A stretch of DNA of 64,000 nucleotides. Source: a virus. Positions within the stretch are counted from its first letter, which is position 1. Each line of letters begins with the position of its first letter. Location of the stretch: positions 29,041 through 93,040 of the IMG/VR virus record IMGVR_UViG_3300043395_002359; one strand, 5' to 3'. Positions 31,380 to 57,674 of the stretch are shown here, piece after piece. Made by a program: the position numbers and the translations under genes. The notes below the pieces were generated by a model, which saw only the letters and a program-made list of their open reading frames with translations, ran no database searches and had not been told where the DNA came from.

Positions 31380-31406
31380 TGTAGTGTAAACCCCTTAACG
31401 GGAACG

Positions 31407-31835
31407 ATGGCTACAATTAGTATTGCGGGTACTGTAACTGGTAAAGCCGGTGAATCGGCAGTTACCTTGAAGACCTTCCCCTCGCGTTTCCCTGGCAGTG
31501 ATGGCGATACCGTCGCAACCTTCAGTGTTGCCGACCGCGCTTATGTCTATGCCAAGCAAGGCGAAGAGCGCCAAGGTCAGTTCTATAGAGTTGAAGTGCG
31601 TGGCAAGGCTGCAGAAATCTGCAGTGAGCGAATCAAGCGCGGTGACAAGATCGCTGTCAGCGGTCAACTCGTCCAACGCACTTATCAAGACAAACTCTTC
31701 CTTGACGTTAAAAACGCATCCGTAACCTTCCTCGATGAAGGTCAGGGCGGCGGCGGCCAGGCCCAGACTCAAGGAGGTGTTCAAGCCCGTCGCGGGGCTC
31801 GACCGGCCCCTGTCGAGGATGAGCTGCCCTTCTGA
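31407..31835 (+). CDS. ssb: Single-stranded DNA-binding protein
   Basis: OB-fold pattern (TFSVAD, RVEVRGKAAE, GDKIAVSGQL) and acidic DELPF tail. Confidence 0.9.
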   Translation: MATISIAGTVTGKAGESAVTLKTFPSRFPGSDGDTVATFSVADRAYVYAKQGEERQGQFYRVEVRGKAAEICSERIKRGDKIAVSGQLVQRTYQDKLFLDVKNASVTFLDEGQGGGGQAQTQGGVQARRGARPAPVEDELPF

Positions 31836-51884: not shown

Positions 51885-52091
51885 ATGCCAAATCTAAAAC
51901 GCTGGGAGAGGCCGTCAGAAGGCCCTAGAAGAAACGACAAGAGCCGACAGGCATCAGCACGCCTAAGGCAAATAAAAAAGCGTACAAAGGCTCAAATGAG
52001 GCGGCTCCGTGAAAAGGGCCGCCTTTTTGTTGAAGTGATCTGTTTTATCTTTGTACTACTTCTTCTTCTTGCTTCTTCTGGCATTGTTTAA
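51885..52091 (+). CDS. Small basic (Arg-rich) protein
   Basis: Motif GGTAGTCTAG begins 30 nt upstream (51855); terminator-like hairpin at ~52000-52028 lies inside the 3' end. Confidence 0.55.
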
Positions 52092-52888: not shown

Positions 52889-53221
52889 ATGCCATATAAA
52901 GACCCCGACAAGCAGCGGAACTACCGCAGGGAATGGGCAAGGAAAAATCACAGGATCAAGAGTTCGCTACCATATCACAAAACAAAGAAAAAAATGATAT
53001 TTGAAGCAAAGGATAAGCCATGTGCAGTCTGCAAGCAAACCTTTCCGGTTGCTGCTATGGATCTGCACCATACTGATCCAACCACAAAGGAATTCACAAT
53101 TGCAACTGCCTTGAGAAAGGTTGGATATGAACGATTACAGAAAGAAATAGAAAAATGTATTCCACTGTGTGCCGTTTGTCACAGGCTGCTACATGCGGGC
53201 CTAGTTGAACTGGAAAGCTAA
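52889..53221 (+). CDS. HNH endonuclease-like protein
   Basis: CAVC...DLHH...EIEKCIPLCAVCHRLLH. Confidence 0.85.
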   Translation: MPYKDPDKQRNYRREWARKNHRIKSSLPYHKTKKKMIFEAKDKPCAVCKQTFPVAAMDLHHTDPTTKEFTIATALRKVGYERLQKEIEKCIPLCAVCHRLLHAGLVELES

Positions 53222-54369: not shown

Positions 54370-54762
54370 CTATTTAGTTAGTCTGTTGTTAAAGTTAAAC
54401 TGATAGCCGGATAATGTATCATCATTGCAAAACGATGAATAGGTTCTATGGCAACAGATTTTATTTATAGCAGTTTCATGTACGCCAAATTCTTTAGCAA
54501 TACTGGCTTGCGTTTCGCCTAGTTTGTTTCTGAGTCTGATGTCATGAATCTGTAGATCGCTAAGGAATCCCATCTTGCGTCCACGCTTGATCGGATCTTT
54601 GCTAATAGGAGGACGCCTCCTTACTCTTTGTATAACTTTGCTTGGAGTTGATGCTGATACATTTGTGATTCTTGCAATGCTATCGAAATCGTAGCCTTGG
54701 CACCTTAGGTCCCAAATGCGGTCTTCCTTGGGAATGGAGATTCGTCCTCTTGTTCTGGTCAT
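54370..54762 (-). CDS. Double-HTH DNA-binding protein
   Basis: SIARITNVSAST and ASIAKEFGVHETAINKI. Confidence 0.7.
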   Translation of the reverse strand: MTRTRGRISIPKEDRIWDLRCQGYDFDSIARITNVSASTPSKVIQRVRRRPPISKDPIKRGRKMGFLSDLQIHDIRLRNKLGETQASIAKEFGVHETAINKICCHRTYSSFCNDDTLSGYQFNFNNRLTK

Positions 54763-54822
54763 GACACGGAAGGGGCTTGACGGGTGTGGTCCCGCACGGC
54801 TATTCTAAGCTGGTACCAACCA

Positions 54823-54984
54823 ATGTCAACCTTGAAGCTCGAGAAGACCACCATCCTGGCAATCTGCCTGGCGACCGCCGGATTGTTTACTTATTCAGAA
54901 GTTGCCAAAAAAGAACACGAAATTCACATGAAGCAATCAAAATACGAAAACATGGTAAAAGATATCAAAATTAACAATCGATAG
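54823..54984 (+). CDS. Small membrane-anchored protein
   Basis: TTGACG-18-TATTCT upstream; N-terminal hydrophobic helix. Confidence 0.5.
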   Translation: MSTLKLEKTTILAICLATAGLFTYSEVAKKEHEIHMKQSKYENMVKDIKINNR

Positions 54985-55046
54985 GCGCTTTCCCGAATCG
55001 AACGGGTTCTCTAGGCTATCTGCCTAACGTGTCCAACACCAAGCGC
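54984..55046 (-). ncRNA. Miniature tRNA-like element
   Basis: GCGCTT/AAGCGC acceptor, GTGT-TGG-ACAC, TAGGC-AGATA-GCCTA, CCCG-TTCGATT-CGGG. Confidence 0.65.
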
Positions 55047-55503
55047 AGTGACCCTCCTGTTTGTGCGTCATCCAGCGTCCTGGAGCTAAGCATGGAGGGT
55101 GTTGGTCGAGGAGGAGGTAGATGCGCCTTTAAGCCTGATTTGAAATCAAGCGGCTTCATGCCTCCTCCCCATTTCCGGTTATTACTGAGACATCACCTGC
55201 ACACCGGCAAACTCTGGTGATGAATGATCCGATGCGCTTGCCAAATGGGTCCCCGGCGCAACCGTGGATCAGACGGGTGGAAGGTGATCAGCCCCCCAGC
55301 CTGGAATCCCAGGACTTAGGCCCGATGCGGCGACCGGAGATTTCCAGTCCATGCAGAGCGGGAACGCAAACCAGGAAAGGTAACCCACACCAACGGTGGA
55401 CCTCAGAACTGGCTGCACCTTGCCGACAGAGCAGCAAGGGTGGCTGGCAGAAGGACCGGGCATGACGGATGTAAAGACAGCCAACAGAGGCCCGGCCTCT
55501 GTC
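55047..55503 (-). ncRNA. Long multi-hairpin structured RNA of unknown family
   Basis: Dense stems, mostly G-U compatible on the minus strand; TATACT at 55515-55510; no credible ORF. Confidence 0.55.
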
Positions 55504-55574
55504 CTAACCAGTATACCAAGCCATGACAGGTATTTTCACAAAAATACATATTTGTCAGAAAATGAAAAAGACAC

Positions 55575-55735
55575 AAAAATAGACCAGACGATGTGGTTGA
55601 GCCCTTGTGAACGCCCCCAACTGGCTTGATAGTTGGGATAGTAAGAGCCACATCATCTGATCTATGGTTCTTAGATGGCGAGAATATGTGTCGCCGCCTA
55701 AGGGATGTGTCTAAACCATGCAGGGCGTCTAACTG
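55575..55735 (-). ncRNA. Putative ~160-nt small RNA
   Basis: TATACT at 55746-55741; two long stems; U-rich tail. Confidence 0.5.
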
Positions 55736-55753
55736 ATGCCAGTATAACGGAAA

Positions 55754-55827
55754 CACCCCAGACAGGATTTGAACCTGTGGCCGACCGCTTAGAAGGCGGT
55801 TGCTCTAGTCCACTGAGCTACTGAGGC
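55754..55827 (-). tRNA. tRNA-Arg(UCU)
   Basis: GCCTCAG/CTGGGGT; ACCGC-CTTCTAA-GCGGT; ACAGG-TTCAAAT-CCTGT. Confidence 0.95.
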
Positions 55828-55828
55828 A

Positions 55829-55935
55829 AGGCGTCGCCAATAGCCACTCTTACCTCCCCGTCGGAAGGTGCAGGCATCGAACCTGCAGAGGCCAGTCCCC
55901 GTGGAACTGCCGGGAATTCCACCCGGAACGCACCC
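55829..55935 (-). ncRNA. Tandem circularly permuted tRNA-like RNA
   Basis: Two units of 5-bp stem/7-nt loop plus 7-bp hairpin; TATACT at 55943-55938. Confidence 0.65.
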
Positions 55936-55943
55936 ACAGTATA

Positions 55944-57371: not shown

Positions 57372-57674
57372 GTGGCGGCAAGACCAACCCATGGCTATTA
57401 CTCCAAAAATAGGAGTGAAGTTGATGTCTATCTAACGCACGCATCTAGGCCAGTCAATCCAAACAAATTCTCCAAATTCATAGGTGTCCACAAAAACAGC
57501 AACCCACTCAAGCCTTATAGAGCTGCTATACGCTTTAAGGGCAAAAAGTACCAAATTGGCGTATTTGCAGACGAAATAGAGGCTGCAAAAGCCTATAACA
57601 AAGTGGCTTTGAGTCTTATTGGTCCTAGGGCTTTAATCAATGAAATCCCAGAAACGACTCAGGAATCTAACTAA
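57372..57674 (+). CDS. AP2-domain DNA-binding protein
   Basis: SKFIGV...YRAAIR...IGVFADEIEAAKAYNKVA. Confidence 0.85.
   Translation: MAARPTHGYYSKNRSEVDVYLTHASRPVNPNKFSKFIGVHKNSNPLKPYRAAIRFKGKKYQIGVFADEIEAAKAYNKVALSLIGPRALINEIPETTQESN

What the first reader, a model, noticed from the sequence alone, without database searches (positions are those of the whole stretch)
55047..55503. Multi-domain ~450-nt RNA of unknown family
Seen (minus strand, 5' to 3'): GACAGAGGC/GCCTCTGTT; a multibranch closed by GCCCGGT/ATCGGGC containing CCTTGCTG/CGGCAAGG, nested GCCAG-GAGG-CCAC/GTGG-CCTT-CTGGT and GACTGGA/TCCGGTC; CCTGG/CCAGG; TGATCC/GGATCA enclosing TGCGC/GCGCA; then two self-closed modules GGAGGAGG/CCTCCTCC and ACCCTCC/GGAGGGT. 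It could be one ornate RNA or a precursor of several small RNAs. I found no convincing hammerhead, twister or HDV core.
Basis: seen in the sequence. Interest (0 to 1): 0.7.

Follow-up and report, generated by a model that had tools for sequence, protein, structure and literature searches.

The report
Modular cyanophage RNA with AbiF-antitoxin hairpin
This lake virus of cyanobacteria carries a gene for a roughly 460-base folded, non-coding RNA built from swappable modules; its last module derives from the small RNA that bacteria use to keep their AbiF suicide nuclease switched off, so the virus probably makes it to disarm that defence.

Summary
The feature is real. Window 55047-55503 (minus strand) is a non-coding RNA gene with its own promoter, in the tRNA region of a complete 93-kb cyanosiphovirus-like genome. 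About 30 related copies lie in lake phage and metagenome contigs. Compensatory base changes support nearly every helix, and no reading frame is conserved.

The RNA is a chain of self-contained modules that relatives gain, lose and nest independently:
- a long 5' hairpin (P1);
- two insertion modules (M2, M2b);
- a pseudoknotted central domain (M3);
- another pseudoknotted module (M4);
- a 3' hairpin (M5), followed by a tRNA-like cloverleaf (M6).

P1 replaces them.

In sister phages the 3' hairpin scores as Rfam abiF (RF03085), the RNA antitoxin of the AbiF/Abi_2 HEPN RNase. The window carries a phage-only long form that scores below threshold. The phage has no Abi_2 gene. Cyanobacterial plasmids do, each with a similar hairpin upstream.

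A freshwater metatranscriptome holds 55062-55467 as one adapter-flanked contig.

Best reading (about 0.5): a stable decoy antitoxin against host AbiF, with its 3' end cut by RNase P. The other modules are unexplained.

This scan reached the same reading before on other phage genomes, including this RNA family (e1-5935898).

The parts
55510..55539 (-). Promoter: GTGAAA, 18 nt, TG-n-TATACT (extended -10). The RNA starts about 7 nt downstream, at G55503.
   Evidence: The consensus scan finds it. A -10 box, often TGTGTATAAT, lies 6-7 nt before the conserved 5' GAYAGAG in most members (25 of 27 by my reading of the listing; L059 and L139 show none).
55447..55503 (-). Module M1 = P1, a long irregular hairpin. 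The 5' strand is GACAGAG+GCCGGGC (55503-55490). A variable apical extension follows (55489-55462). The 3' strand is GCCCGGT (55461-55455), then a 2-nt bulge, then CTTCTG.
   Evidence: 14 pairs, 7 of them compensatory, 0/500 shuffles (A3). The minimum-energy fold alone and in the full RNA gives the same hairpin.
55364..55446 (-). Module M2 (optional in the family). It has a hairpin CCTTGCTG-CTCTGT-CGGCAAGG (55439-55418) with a near-invariant loop. It also has a stem GCAGCCAG...CTGGTTTGC (55416-55366) that encloses the nested GAGG/CCTT and CCAC/GTGG hairpin.
   Evidence: Covariation tables. The module is present in 19 members and absent from minimal forms such as L094 and L115.
55321..55362 (-). 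Module M2b: CCCG...CGGG enclosing the hairpin GACTGGA-AATC-TCCGGTC.
   Evidence: CCCG/CGGG becomes CTCG/CGAG in L101. GACTGGA/TCCGGTC becomes GATCGGA/TTCGATC in L002. In L002, L133 and L114 the same unit is nested inside M2 instead of lying after it.
55225..55317 (-). Module M3, the conserved central domain. It contains, in order:
- AAGUCC;
- hairpin H1 (55313-55300);
- hairpin H2 (55298-55278);
- an H-type pseudoknot, in which CCG 55276-55274 pairs with CGG 55264-55262 and the enclosed UGAUCC 55271-55266 pairs with GGAUCA 55230-55225;
- hairpin H4 (55260-55256 with 55237-55233).
   Evidence: 27 pairs in 30 sequences: 99.3% paired, 9 compensatory pairs, 0/500 shuffles, and all slid controls collapse (A2).
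55105..55224 (-). Module M4. Stem CATCACC/GGTGATG (55222-55216 with 55197-55191). Its loop GCCGGT (55208-55203) can pair with ACCGG (55179-55175). Then stem GGGGAGGAGG/CCTCCTCCTC (55170-55161 with 55117-55108) encloses GCTTGATTT/AAATCAGGC.
   Evidence: Found in only 5 members: window, L140, L093, L127 and L007. By eye these show several compensatory changes, such as CACCACC/GGTGGTG, CACTACC/GGTAGTG and GGAGAAAG/CTTTTTCC. The minimum-energy fold agrees, z = -2.9.
55047..55104 (-). Module M5, an abiF-derived hairpin (long form). It reads AACA, ACCCTCC, bulged A, TGC, [TTAGC-TCCAG-GACG-CTGGA-TGAC], GCA, bulge CAAACA, GGAGGGT, tail CACT.
   Evidence: Rfam abiF scores 25.4 bits here (gathering score 37). 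Short-form copies at the same position in relatives score 41-56 bits. 15 pairs, 10 compensatory, 0/500 shuffles (A4).
54984..55046 (-). Module M6, a tRNA-like cloverleaf directly after the CACT tail. It has a 6-bp acceptor stem (GCGCTT/AAGCGC), a shrunken D arm, a 5-nt 'anticodon' loop and the T loop TTCGATT. It is the presumed RNase P site that sets the 3' end of the RNA.
   Evidence: The minimum-energy fold is a cloverleaf. Elements at the same position in L095, L094, L007 and L140 pass Rfam's tRNA threshold. 22 of 28 members have a T-loop motif within 130 nt after the hairpin.
55062..55467 (-). The stretch held as one adapter-flanked contig in a freshwater metatranscriptome.
   Evidence: Run X7, record 26: 451 letters, k-mer depth 1396, Illumina adapters at both ends. 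The read-1 adapter is on the 55062 side.

Best explanation
**What it is.** A non-coding RNA gene of a lake cyanosiphovirus-like phage.

**Shown here.**
- It has a promoter-like site of its own.
- It is conserved as RNA structure, not as protein, in about 30 related phage contigs.
- It is a linear chain of independently folding modules: P1, M2, M2b, the pseudoknotted core M3, M4, then the terminal hairpin M5.
- M5 descends from the abiF motif. That motif is the cis-encoded RNA antitoxin (AbiFr/RCd22) that binds and silences the AbiF/Abi_2 HEPN RNase of abortive-infection systems.
- The phage has no Abi_2 gene.

**Inferred mechanism.**
1. The RNA is transcribed from G55503.
2. RNase P cuts in front of the tRNA-like M6. 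This leaves the hairpin with a ...GGAGGGUCACU 3' end, which matches the ...GGCGGGUUACU tail of cyanobacterial AbiF leader hairpins.
3. During infection, host transcription fails and the host's own labile antitoxin RNA runs down.
4. The abundant, heavily structured phage RNA then occupies AbiF and keeps the nuclease off, so the cell does not abort the infection.

The upstream modules most likely act as a stabilising scaffold. They could also be further protein-binding sites. Their role is not shown.
For: 1. **Real, conserved structure.** Compensatory changes support P1, M3 with its pseudoknot, M5 and M2. In the three counted with shuffle controls (P1, M3, M5), 0 of 500 shuffles reached the observed covariation score.
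2. **Not coding.** Matches to the window's ORFs are short pieces, on both strands and with frame changes.
3. **abiF ancestry.**
   - 28 of 30 members that carry the central domain have an abiF-type hairpin next, 7 short and 21 long.
   - The short forms pass Rfam's threshold.
   - The apical part of the short form, AAGCCTCTCNNNGNWGCTCAAAC, is letter for letter the one that sits 14-29 nt upstream of Abi_2 genes in Microbacterium, Desulfuromonadaceae and Lachnospiraceae.
4. **No toxin in the phage.** PF07751 finds nothing in the complete 93-kb genome.
5. **The host phylum has the target.** Cyanobacterial plasmids carry Abi family genes. Those of Picosynechococcus PCC 73109 and Synechocystis PCC 6714 have an abiF-like hairpin upstream. 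C. aponinum shows the same hairpin layout by eye in the sequence, but Rfam gave no abiF match there. The Picosynechococcus hairpin shares with the phage long form a longer apical part that begins with YTAG, and both cyanobacterial sequences shown share a CAAA-type bulge and a T(T/C)ACT tail.
6. **Present in RNA.** A 406-nt adapter-flanked contig stands at depth 1396 in a metatranscriptome from a different study than the likely source sample.
7. **Published basis.**
   - RCd22, with its abiF motifs, neutralises AbiF by direct binding (10.1101/2025.04.15.648962).
   - Bulge nucleotides of AbiFr inhibit the RNase (PMC12737573).
   - A phage escapes the type III system ToxIN with a pseudo-antitoxin RNA (PMC3475682).
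Against: - The window's own hairpin scores 25.4 bits, below Rfam's 37. The 11-nt apical loop that is conserved from Bacillota to Actinomycetota is replaced by an internal loop plus a hairpin.
- That long form was found only in phage contigs and in none of the GTDB genomes. Whether it still binds any AbiF is therefore unknown.
- The hairpin is about an eighth of the RNA. The most conserved part, the M3 core with its invariant AAGUCCUGGGUUUCCAGGCC, has no explanation under the decoy model.
- The actual host, and whether it carries AbiF, are unknown.
- The expression evidence is one run of assembled contigs, not raw reads.
- The RNase P cut is inferred. The window's M6 does not itself pass the tRNA model.
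Confidence: 0.5

Rival explanations
1. A structured phage RNA whose main function lies in the conserved core (P1 plus the M3 pseudoknot) and is unrelated to AbiF. It could, for example, be a sponge or decoy for another host RNA-binding protein or RNase, or a self-assembling scaffold RNA. On this view the abiF-like hairpin serves only as a stable 3' terminal stem.
For: - M3 is the most conserved module. AAGUCCUGGGUUUCCAGGCC is invariant in 30 sequences.
- M3 is present even where the abiF hairpin was not found (L093, L127), and its first half is combined with other modules in L111, L105 and L140.
- The window's hairpin has lost the canonical loop.
Against: - 28 of 30 members keep an abiF-type hairpin.
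- The protein-facing features stay under selection: bulged A, WGC/GCW, the CAAAC bulge and the UCACU tail.
- No known family or partner can be named for M3.
Confidence: 0.2
2. A precursor that is cut into several small stable RNAs, one per module. Each would have its own role, as in an array of small decoys, rather than one 460-nt RNA.
For: - Modules are gained, lost, nested and reordered independently among relatives.
- In L070, P1 stands apart, with another promoter-like site between it and the rest.
- A tRNA-like element punctuates the 3' end.
- Earlier scan note e1-5894399 read a related kilobase as an array of small modules.
Against: - One metatranscriptome contig runs without a break across M2, M2b, M3, M4 and into M5.
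- There is no tRNA-like punctuation or promoter between the window's modules.
Confidence: 0.17
3. A cis-acting leader that controls the processing or level of the downstream tRNA-like element, or the expression of the neighbouring HTH gene.
For: The hairpin always lies 4-5 nt before a tRNA or tRNA-like element. The 130-aa HTH gene follows in the closest relatives.
Against: - The HTH gene has its own strong promoter-like site, TTGACA-16-TAGAAT.
- In L002 and L007 a tRNA-Arg lies between the RNA and whatever comes next.
- A 460-nt leader with pseudoknots for a degenerate tRNA-like element has no precedent.
Confidence: 0.06
4. A self-cleaving ribozyme, an intron, or a small protein-coding gene.
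For: The 47-aa ORF 55016-55159 has a GGAGG upstream. Its first 13 codons are kept in L140 and L093, with mostly third-position changes.
Against: - No ribozyme or intron family matches at E up to 5-10.
- The third-position changes are also compensatory in a hairpin.
- L007 keeps the hairpin but has no ATG and has a stop.
- No ORF is conserved beyond about 35 residues, and matches appear on both strands.
Confidence: 0.03

Closest known systems
abiF RNA motif (Rfam RF03085; called AbiFr for Prevotellaceae AbiF, and RCd22 in Clostridioides difficile): RNA antitoxin of the AbiF/Abi_2 HEPN RNase, a type III-like toxin-antitoxin system
   Same: - G+C-rich closing stem.
- Single bulged A.
- A 3-bp WGC/GCW stem that covaries.
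- A single-stranded 3' bulge, CAAAC.
- Conserved flanks (ACA... before, U-ACU after).
- Short-form copies at the same position in sister phages pass the Rfam threshold and match bacterial copies upstream of Abi_2 genes letter for letter in the apical part.
   Different: - The window's copy has a hairpin inserted in place of the 11-nt loop and scores 25.4 bits against a threshold of 37.
- It is a single copy, whereas RCd22 has two.
- No toxin gene lies next to it or anywhere in the phage.
- It is the 3' end of a 460-nt multi-module RNA.
- It ends at a tRNA-like element instead of a U-tract terminator.
Pseudo-ToxI of phage PhiTE (RNA mimic of the ToxI antitoxin that lets the phage escape ToxIN; PMC3475682)
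   Same: A phage-borne, toxin-less copy of a host RNA antitoxin, proposed to keep an abortive-infection RNase inactive.
   Different: ToxI is a tandem array of 36-nt pseudoknot repeats for a different toxin family (ToxN). Here the mimic is one hairpin for a HEPN toxin, set in a large scaffold. Its function here is untested.
Orphan structured RNAs of cyanophages and phage tRNA regions: manA, wcaG, PhotoRC (Weinberg 2010); the abiF sRNA noted in Synechococcus phage S-CREM1 (PMC9964418); GOLLD and ROOL, large phage RNAs near tRNAs (my own knowledge)
   Same: Phage-encoded, strongly structured, located in or beside tRNA clusters, function unknown. S-CREM1, S-SZBM1 and S-SRM01 carry the short abiF hairpin.
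   Different: None of those Rfam families matches. The P1, M2, M3 and M4 modules were not found in any GenBank phage by blastn. At about 460 nt the RNA is smaller than GOLLD or ROOL, and there is no evidence of multimer cages.
MALAT1-mascRNA type 3'-end formation, and the stable RNAs of the phage T4 tRNA cluster (my own knowledge)
   Same: A tRNA-like element directly downstream would let RNase P define the 3' end of the upstream stable RNA.
   Different: The cut is inferred, not shown. The one RNA contig ends 15 nt upstream of the predicted cut, inside the CAAACA bulge.

Membership tests
abiF RNA motif (Rfam RF03085) | Score at or above the curated gathering threshold (37 bits) | tested here: not met
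   Window 55051-55099 scores 25.4 bits, E 0.07-0.4. Relatives at the same position score 40.9-55.7 bits.
abiF RNA motif (Rfam RF03085) | Closing stem of 6-7 pairs, bulged A, 3-bp inner stem, 3' single-stranded bulge CAAAYN | tested here: met
   ACCCTCC/GGAGGGT, A55093, TGC/GCA, CAAACA. The stems covary in 32 sequences (10 of 15 pairs compensatory).
abiF RNA motif (Rfam RF03085) | Apical loop of about 11-13 nt (CUCUC...GAU in most bacterial copies) | tested here: not met
   It is replaced by a conserved internal loop (YUAGC / RAUGAY) carrying a hairpin of variable length: 23 nt in the window, 56-73 nt in others. Picosynechococcus and Synechocystis copies, scored by Rfam, have longer loops of 17 nt and score 29.7 bits; the C. 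aponinum hairpin, read by eye, also has a longer apical part.
abiF RNA motif (Rfam RF03085) | Located upstream of an Abi_2 (AbiD/F) gene | tested here: not met
   No PF07751 match in the complete 93-kb phage genome. Bacterial copies do sit 14-29 nt upstream of Abi_2 genes.
abiF RNA motif (Rfam RF03085) | Binds and neutralises AbiF protein | not testable with these tools
   This needs co-expression or binding assays. The complex predictor takes proteins only.
tRNA (for module M6) | Cloverleaf that passes the tRNA covariance model or ARAGORN | tested here: not met
   Not called by ARAGORN or Rfam in the window. The minimum-energy fold is a cloverleaf with a 3-nt D loop and a 5-nt anticodon loop. 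Counterparts in L095, L094, L007 and L140 pass at 32-38 bits.
Self-cleaving ribozymes, group I/II introns, RNase P RNA, tmRNA, GOLLD, ROOL, manA, wcaG | Match to the family covariance model | tested here: not met
   No hit at E up to 5-10 on the region, nor at E up to 1 on minimal-form relatives.

The most novel reading that the evidence does not exclude
The RNA is a modular multi-decoy. Each self-folding module (P1, M2, the M3 pseudoknot, M4, the abiF-like hairpin, the tRNA-like end) would imitate a different host RNA ligand of a defence or RNA-processing protein. The rapid shuffling, nesting and swapping of modules among related cyanophages would then be the footprint of an arms race fought with RNA mimics. 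If so, the still unassigned modules would point to host RNA-protein defence systems that are not yet known.
Probability: 0.18. Interest if true: 0.85.

Novelty: new variant of a known kind. Interest (0 to 1): 0.62.

Why it matters
RNA antitoxins of HEPN toxins (AbiF) were tied to function only in 2024-2025, and AbiF is regarded as the ancestor of Cas13. I found no paper in the searched library that describes a phage-borne AbiF antitoxin mimic.

If the decoy reading holds, this would be a second, independent case of RNA-based antitoxin mimicry by phages, after pseudo-ToxI. It appears widespread in lake cyanophages.

Apart from function, this is a well-supported new family of large modular phage RNAs. 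It has two pseudoknotted domains absent from Rfam, and a metatranscriptome holds it as an adapter-flanked contig at high k-mer depth. That makes it a tractable object for structure probing, and for asking how RNA modules are exchanged between phages.

Tried and rejected
- **RNase P RNA, tmRNA, group I intron in a tRNA, SRP, Y-RNA-like, omega/bridge RNAs.** I considered these from sequence resemblances (AAGUCC, T arm). I dropped them because no Rfam model matches and the helices those families require are absent.
- **A long-range helix CUAAG/CUUAG between M3 and the hairpin loop.** Rejected. Short-form members lack the CUUAG partner.
- **Pairing of the 5' GAYAGAG with the invariant M2 loop CUCUGUC.** It is possible (7 bp in the window) but shows no covariation (L093 and L140 have CUCUGCC), and members without M2 keep GAYAGAG. 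Left open.
- **GenBank phage searches.** blastn and megablast with the window's region or a 14-kb flank found nothing. An exact 32-mer from M2b in IMG/VR also found nothing.
- **GTDB genomes.** The long-form hairpin pattern gave 0 hits.
- **A second abiF-like hit in the window (51955-52010, + strand).** It came from my loose script, is not seen by Rfam, and I treat it as chance.
- **Metatranscriptome gaps.** The parts without cover in run X7 (54787-55061 and 55468-55760), and the depth contrast with the neighbouring ORF contig (8.4), come from contigs.
- **The contig's 3' end.** It falls at 55062, inside the CAAACA bulge. That is suggestive of nuclease processing, but it is a single-library observation.
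- **Host assignment from MAG bins.** Four GTDB 'MAG' contigs hold the phage-type RNA: Rubrivivax, Methylacidiphilales, Bacteroidetes and Aquiluna. All are contigs of MAGs (the Rubrivivax, Methylacidiphilales and Aquiluna bins from lake surveys, the Bacteroidetes bin from a pond), 2 to 41 kb long, and I did not use them.
- **Taxon-wide Abi_2 search.** I could not reach a cyanobacterial genome handle for this, so I used plasmid records instead.

Full report
**Setting.** The window is bases 29041-93040 of a 93,040-bp IMG/VR virus record that CheckV rates complete. Its class II ribonucleotide reductase is 55-59% identical to those of the cyanosiphoviruses S-CBS2, S-CRES1-3 and PSS2. A neighbouring gene carries the cyanobacterial domain DUF3155. 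Related contigs carry glutamine riboswitches. Near-identical DNA turns up almost only in freshwater metagenomes. No GenBank phage matches the region.

The finding lies on the minus strand between tRNA-Arg(UCU) (55753-55828) and a 130-aa double-HTH gene (54370-54762). Its G+C content is about 57%, against about 45% in the flanks.

Folding energy alone is weak evidence: z = -2.5 on the minus strand and -2.07 on the plus strand. The decisive evidence is comparative.
- Neighbour-gene searches and DNA-pattern scans recovered about 30 distinct relatives in IMG/VR and lake metagenome contigs. A few more sit in contigs binned into MAGs.
- None of the ORFs in the stretch is conserved. Matches are pieces of 14-49 residues, found on both strands and with frame changes.

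**Architecture.** The relatives show that the RNA is not a multibranch fold. It is a linear chain of locally folded modules, present or absent independently. The minimal form (L094 3621-3803, about 185 nt) is P1 + M3 + M5. In window coordinates:
- **Promoter.** GTGAAA-18-TGgTATACT at 55539-55510. A -10 box lies 6-7 nt before the conserved 5' GAYAGAG in most members (25 of 27 by my reading; L059 and L139 show none).
- **P1, 55503-55447.** A long hairpin with a variable tip. It has 14 pairs, 7 of them compensatory, and 0/500 shuffles reach the score.
- **M2, 55446-55364, and M2b, 55362-55321.** Optional insertions whose helices covary. In L002, L133 and L114 the M2b-type unit is nested inside M2 rather than placed after it.
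- **M3, 55317-55225.** The conserved core consists of AAGUCC, hairpins H1 and H2, and an H-type pseudoknot with a further hairpin in its loop. It has 27 pairs, 99.3% of cells paired, 9 compensatory pairs and 0/500 shuffles, and the slid controls collapse to 27-51%. H1 is invariant in that set but becomes CCTGC/GCAGG in distant members.
- **M4, 55224-55105.** Found in only five members. It shows several compensatory changes and a likely second pseudoknot, GCCGGU/ACCGG.
- **M5, 55104-55047.** The terminal hairpin: 15 pairs, 10 compensatory, 0/500 shuffles.
- **M6, 55046-54984.** A tRNA-like cloverleaf.

GACAGAGGC/GCCTCTGTT shows no compensatory change and is no better than shuffles. GCCCGGT/ATCGGGC cannot form, because GCCCGGT is the covarying 3' strand of P1.

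**The known part.** Rfam finds nothing at gathering thresholds except tRNAs. Its best weak hit is abiF (RF03085) on 55051-55099 at 25.4 bits, against a threshold of 37.
- In relatives the hairpin at the very same position (after M3, before UCACU and a tRNA-like element) exists in a short form. That form scores 41-56 bits.
- Of 30 members with the central domain, 28 have an abiF-type hairpin: 7 short and 21 long.
- The long form keeps the closing stem, the bulged A, the covarying WGC/GCW stem, the CAAAC bulge and the flanks. It replaces the 11-nt loop by a conserved internal loop (YUAGC / RAUGAY) that carries a hairpin of 23 to 73 nt.
- The apical 23 letters of the short form occur unchanged in 45 places in bacterial genomes of many phyla. 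Where I checked, they lie 14-29 nt upstream of Abi_2 genes, in Microbacterium, Desulfuromonadaceae and Lachnospiraceae.
- The long form was found in no GTDB genome.

**What abiF RNAs do (from papers).**
- RCd22 of C. difficile carries two abiF motifs. It neutralises the AbiF toxin in cis and in trans by direct binding, like a type III antitoxin (10.1101/2025.04.15.648962).
- In the PbAbiF complex each monomer binds one AbiFr. Nucleotides of a single-stranded bulge block the HEPN RNase, and AbiF also processes its RNA (review PMC12737573).
- The motif was noted once in a cyanophage, S-CREM1, without a proposed role (PMC9964418).
- Phage PhiTE escapes ToxIN with a pseudo-antitoxin RNA (PMC3475682).
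- I found no paper in the library that proposes a phage AbiF decoy.

**Evidence bearing on a decoy role.**
- The phage genome has no Abi_2 gene.
- Cyanobacteria do. Plasmids of Picosynechococcus PCC 73109, Synechocystis PCC 6714 and B12, and Cyanobacterium aponinum carry Abi family genes.
- Upstream of the Picosynechococcus and Synechocystis PCC 6714 genes lies an abiF-like hairpin. It is sub-threshold (29.7 bits) because its apical part is longer. C. aponinum shows a similar hairpin by eye, though Rfam gave no abiF match there.
- The Picosynechococcus hairpin, like the phage long form, has an apical part that begins with YTAG. Both cyanobacterial sequences shown have a CAAA-type bulge and a U(U/C)ACU tail, there followed by a U tract.
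- In the phage the same tail is followed by a tRNA-like element. RNase P could therefore produce the equivalent 3' end. This step is inferred.

**Expression.** A freshwater metatranscriptome from a different study than the likely source sample holds 55062-55467 as a single contig of 451 letters. The contig has Illumina adapters at both ends and a k-mer depth of 1396. The read-1 adapter is on the 55062 side, which would fit a minus-strand RNA if the library is dUTP-stranded.

The contig spans the 3' part of P1, then M2, M2b, M3, M4 and most of M5, which favours one long RNA over fully separated small RNAs. These are contigs, so depth and uncovered flanks cannot be used quantitatively. The contig's 3' end falls inside the CAAACA bulge, which is only a hint of processing.

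**Verdict.** The RNA gene, its modular fold and its abiF ancestry are well supported. The anti-AbiF decoy function is the best available mechanism, at about 0.5, but it is untested. It also leaves the most conserved module, M3, unexplained.

The same reading was reached earlier in this scan on other phage genomes, including this family (e1-5935898). I derived the modules, the promoter and the abiF link independently on this window before reading those notes.

Noticed in passing
window 55016-55159 (-): A 47-aa ORF starts inside M4 behind GGAGGAGG. Its first 13 codons (MKPLDFKSGLK[AV]H) are kept in L140 and L093 with mostly third-position changes. Those changes are also compensatory in the hairpin GCTTGATTT/AAATCAGGC. 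L007 keeps the hairpin but has no ATG and has a stop. A micro-ORF in a sub-clade is not excluded.
   Followed up: partly
window 55011-55027 (-); L099, L113, L118, L133, L136, L141 P1 tips; L105, L139: The small hairpin YUAGGC-A(G/C/A)AUA-GCCUAG-AAG recurs in two settings. It is the 'anticodon arm' of the tRNA-like M6, and it is an insert at the tip of P1 in other members. It looks like a mobile sub-module or a shared protein-binding site.
   Followed up: no
L073 11700-11740, L085 4130-4170, L083, L087, L111, L139 (after the abiF hairpin or after H2): Another recurrent, unassigned module, GGGTGCAACAAGGAACGTTGCATTAAACGAAGGATCCCC, follows the UCACU tail or the M3 half-domain in several relatives. 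It is not present in the window.
   Followed up: no
window 55443/55902: A DNA metagenome (run X3) contains a minority contig that joins 55443 to 55902, skipping 458 bases. This matches the L070-type arrangement, in which the tRNA-like minihelices lead directly into M2. It is direct evidence of module rearrangement among co-occurring phage variants.
   Followed up: partly
window 55829-55943 and 55575-55735 (-): Two further conserved non-coding units share the island. The minihelix region upstream of tRNA-Arg is 81-87% identical in L005, L007, L059, L060 and L070. There is also a stretch between tRNA-Arg and the promoter. Both are subjects of other first-reader notes.
   Followed up: no
window 52889-53221 (+), 54370-54762 (-), 57372-57674 (+): Small HNH-endonuclease-like and HTH-only ORFs (homing-endonuclease remnants) surround the RNA/tRNA island. 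This fits a recombination-prone region.
   Followed up: no
L002 8173-8237 (-), L105 6848-6900 (+): Glutamine and Glutamine-II riboswitch aptamers occur in related phage contigs. This supports cyanobacterial hosts for the clade.
   Followed up: no
GenBank NC_022066 (Mycobacterium phage Redno2) 90558-90586; S-SZBM1 31406-31451; S-SRM01 184077-184119: Unannotated short abiF-type hairpins occur in cultured phages, including a mycobacteriophage. They could serve as experimental models.
   Followed up: no
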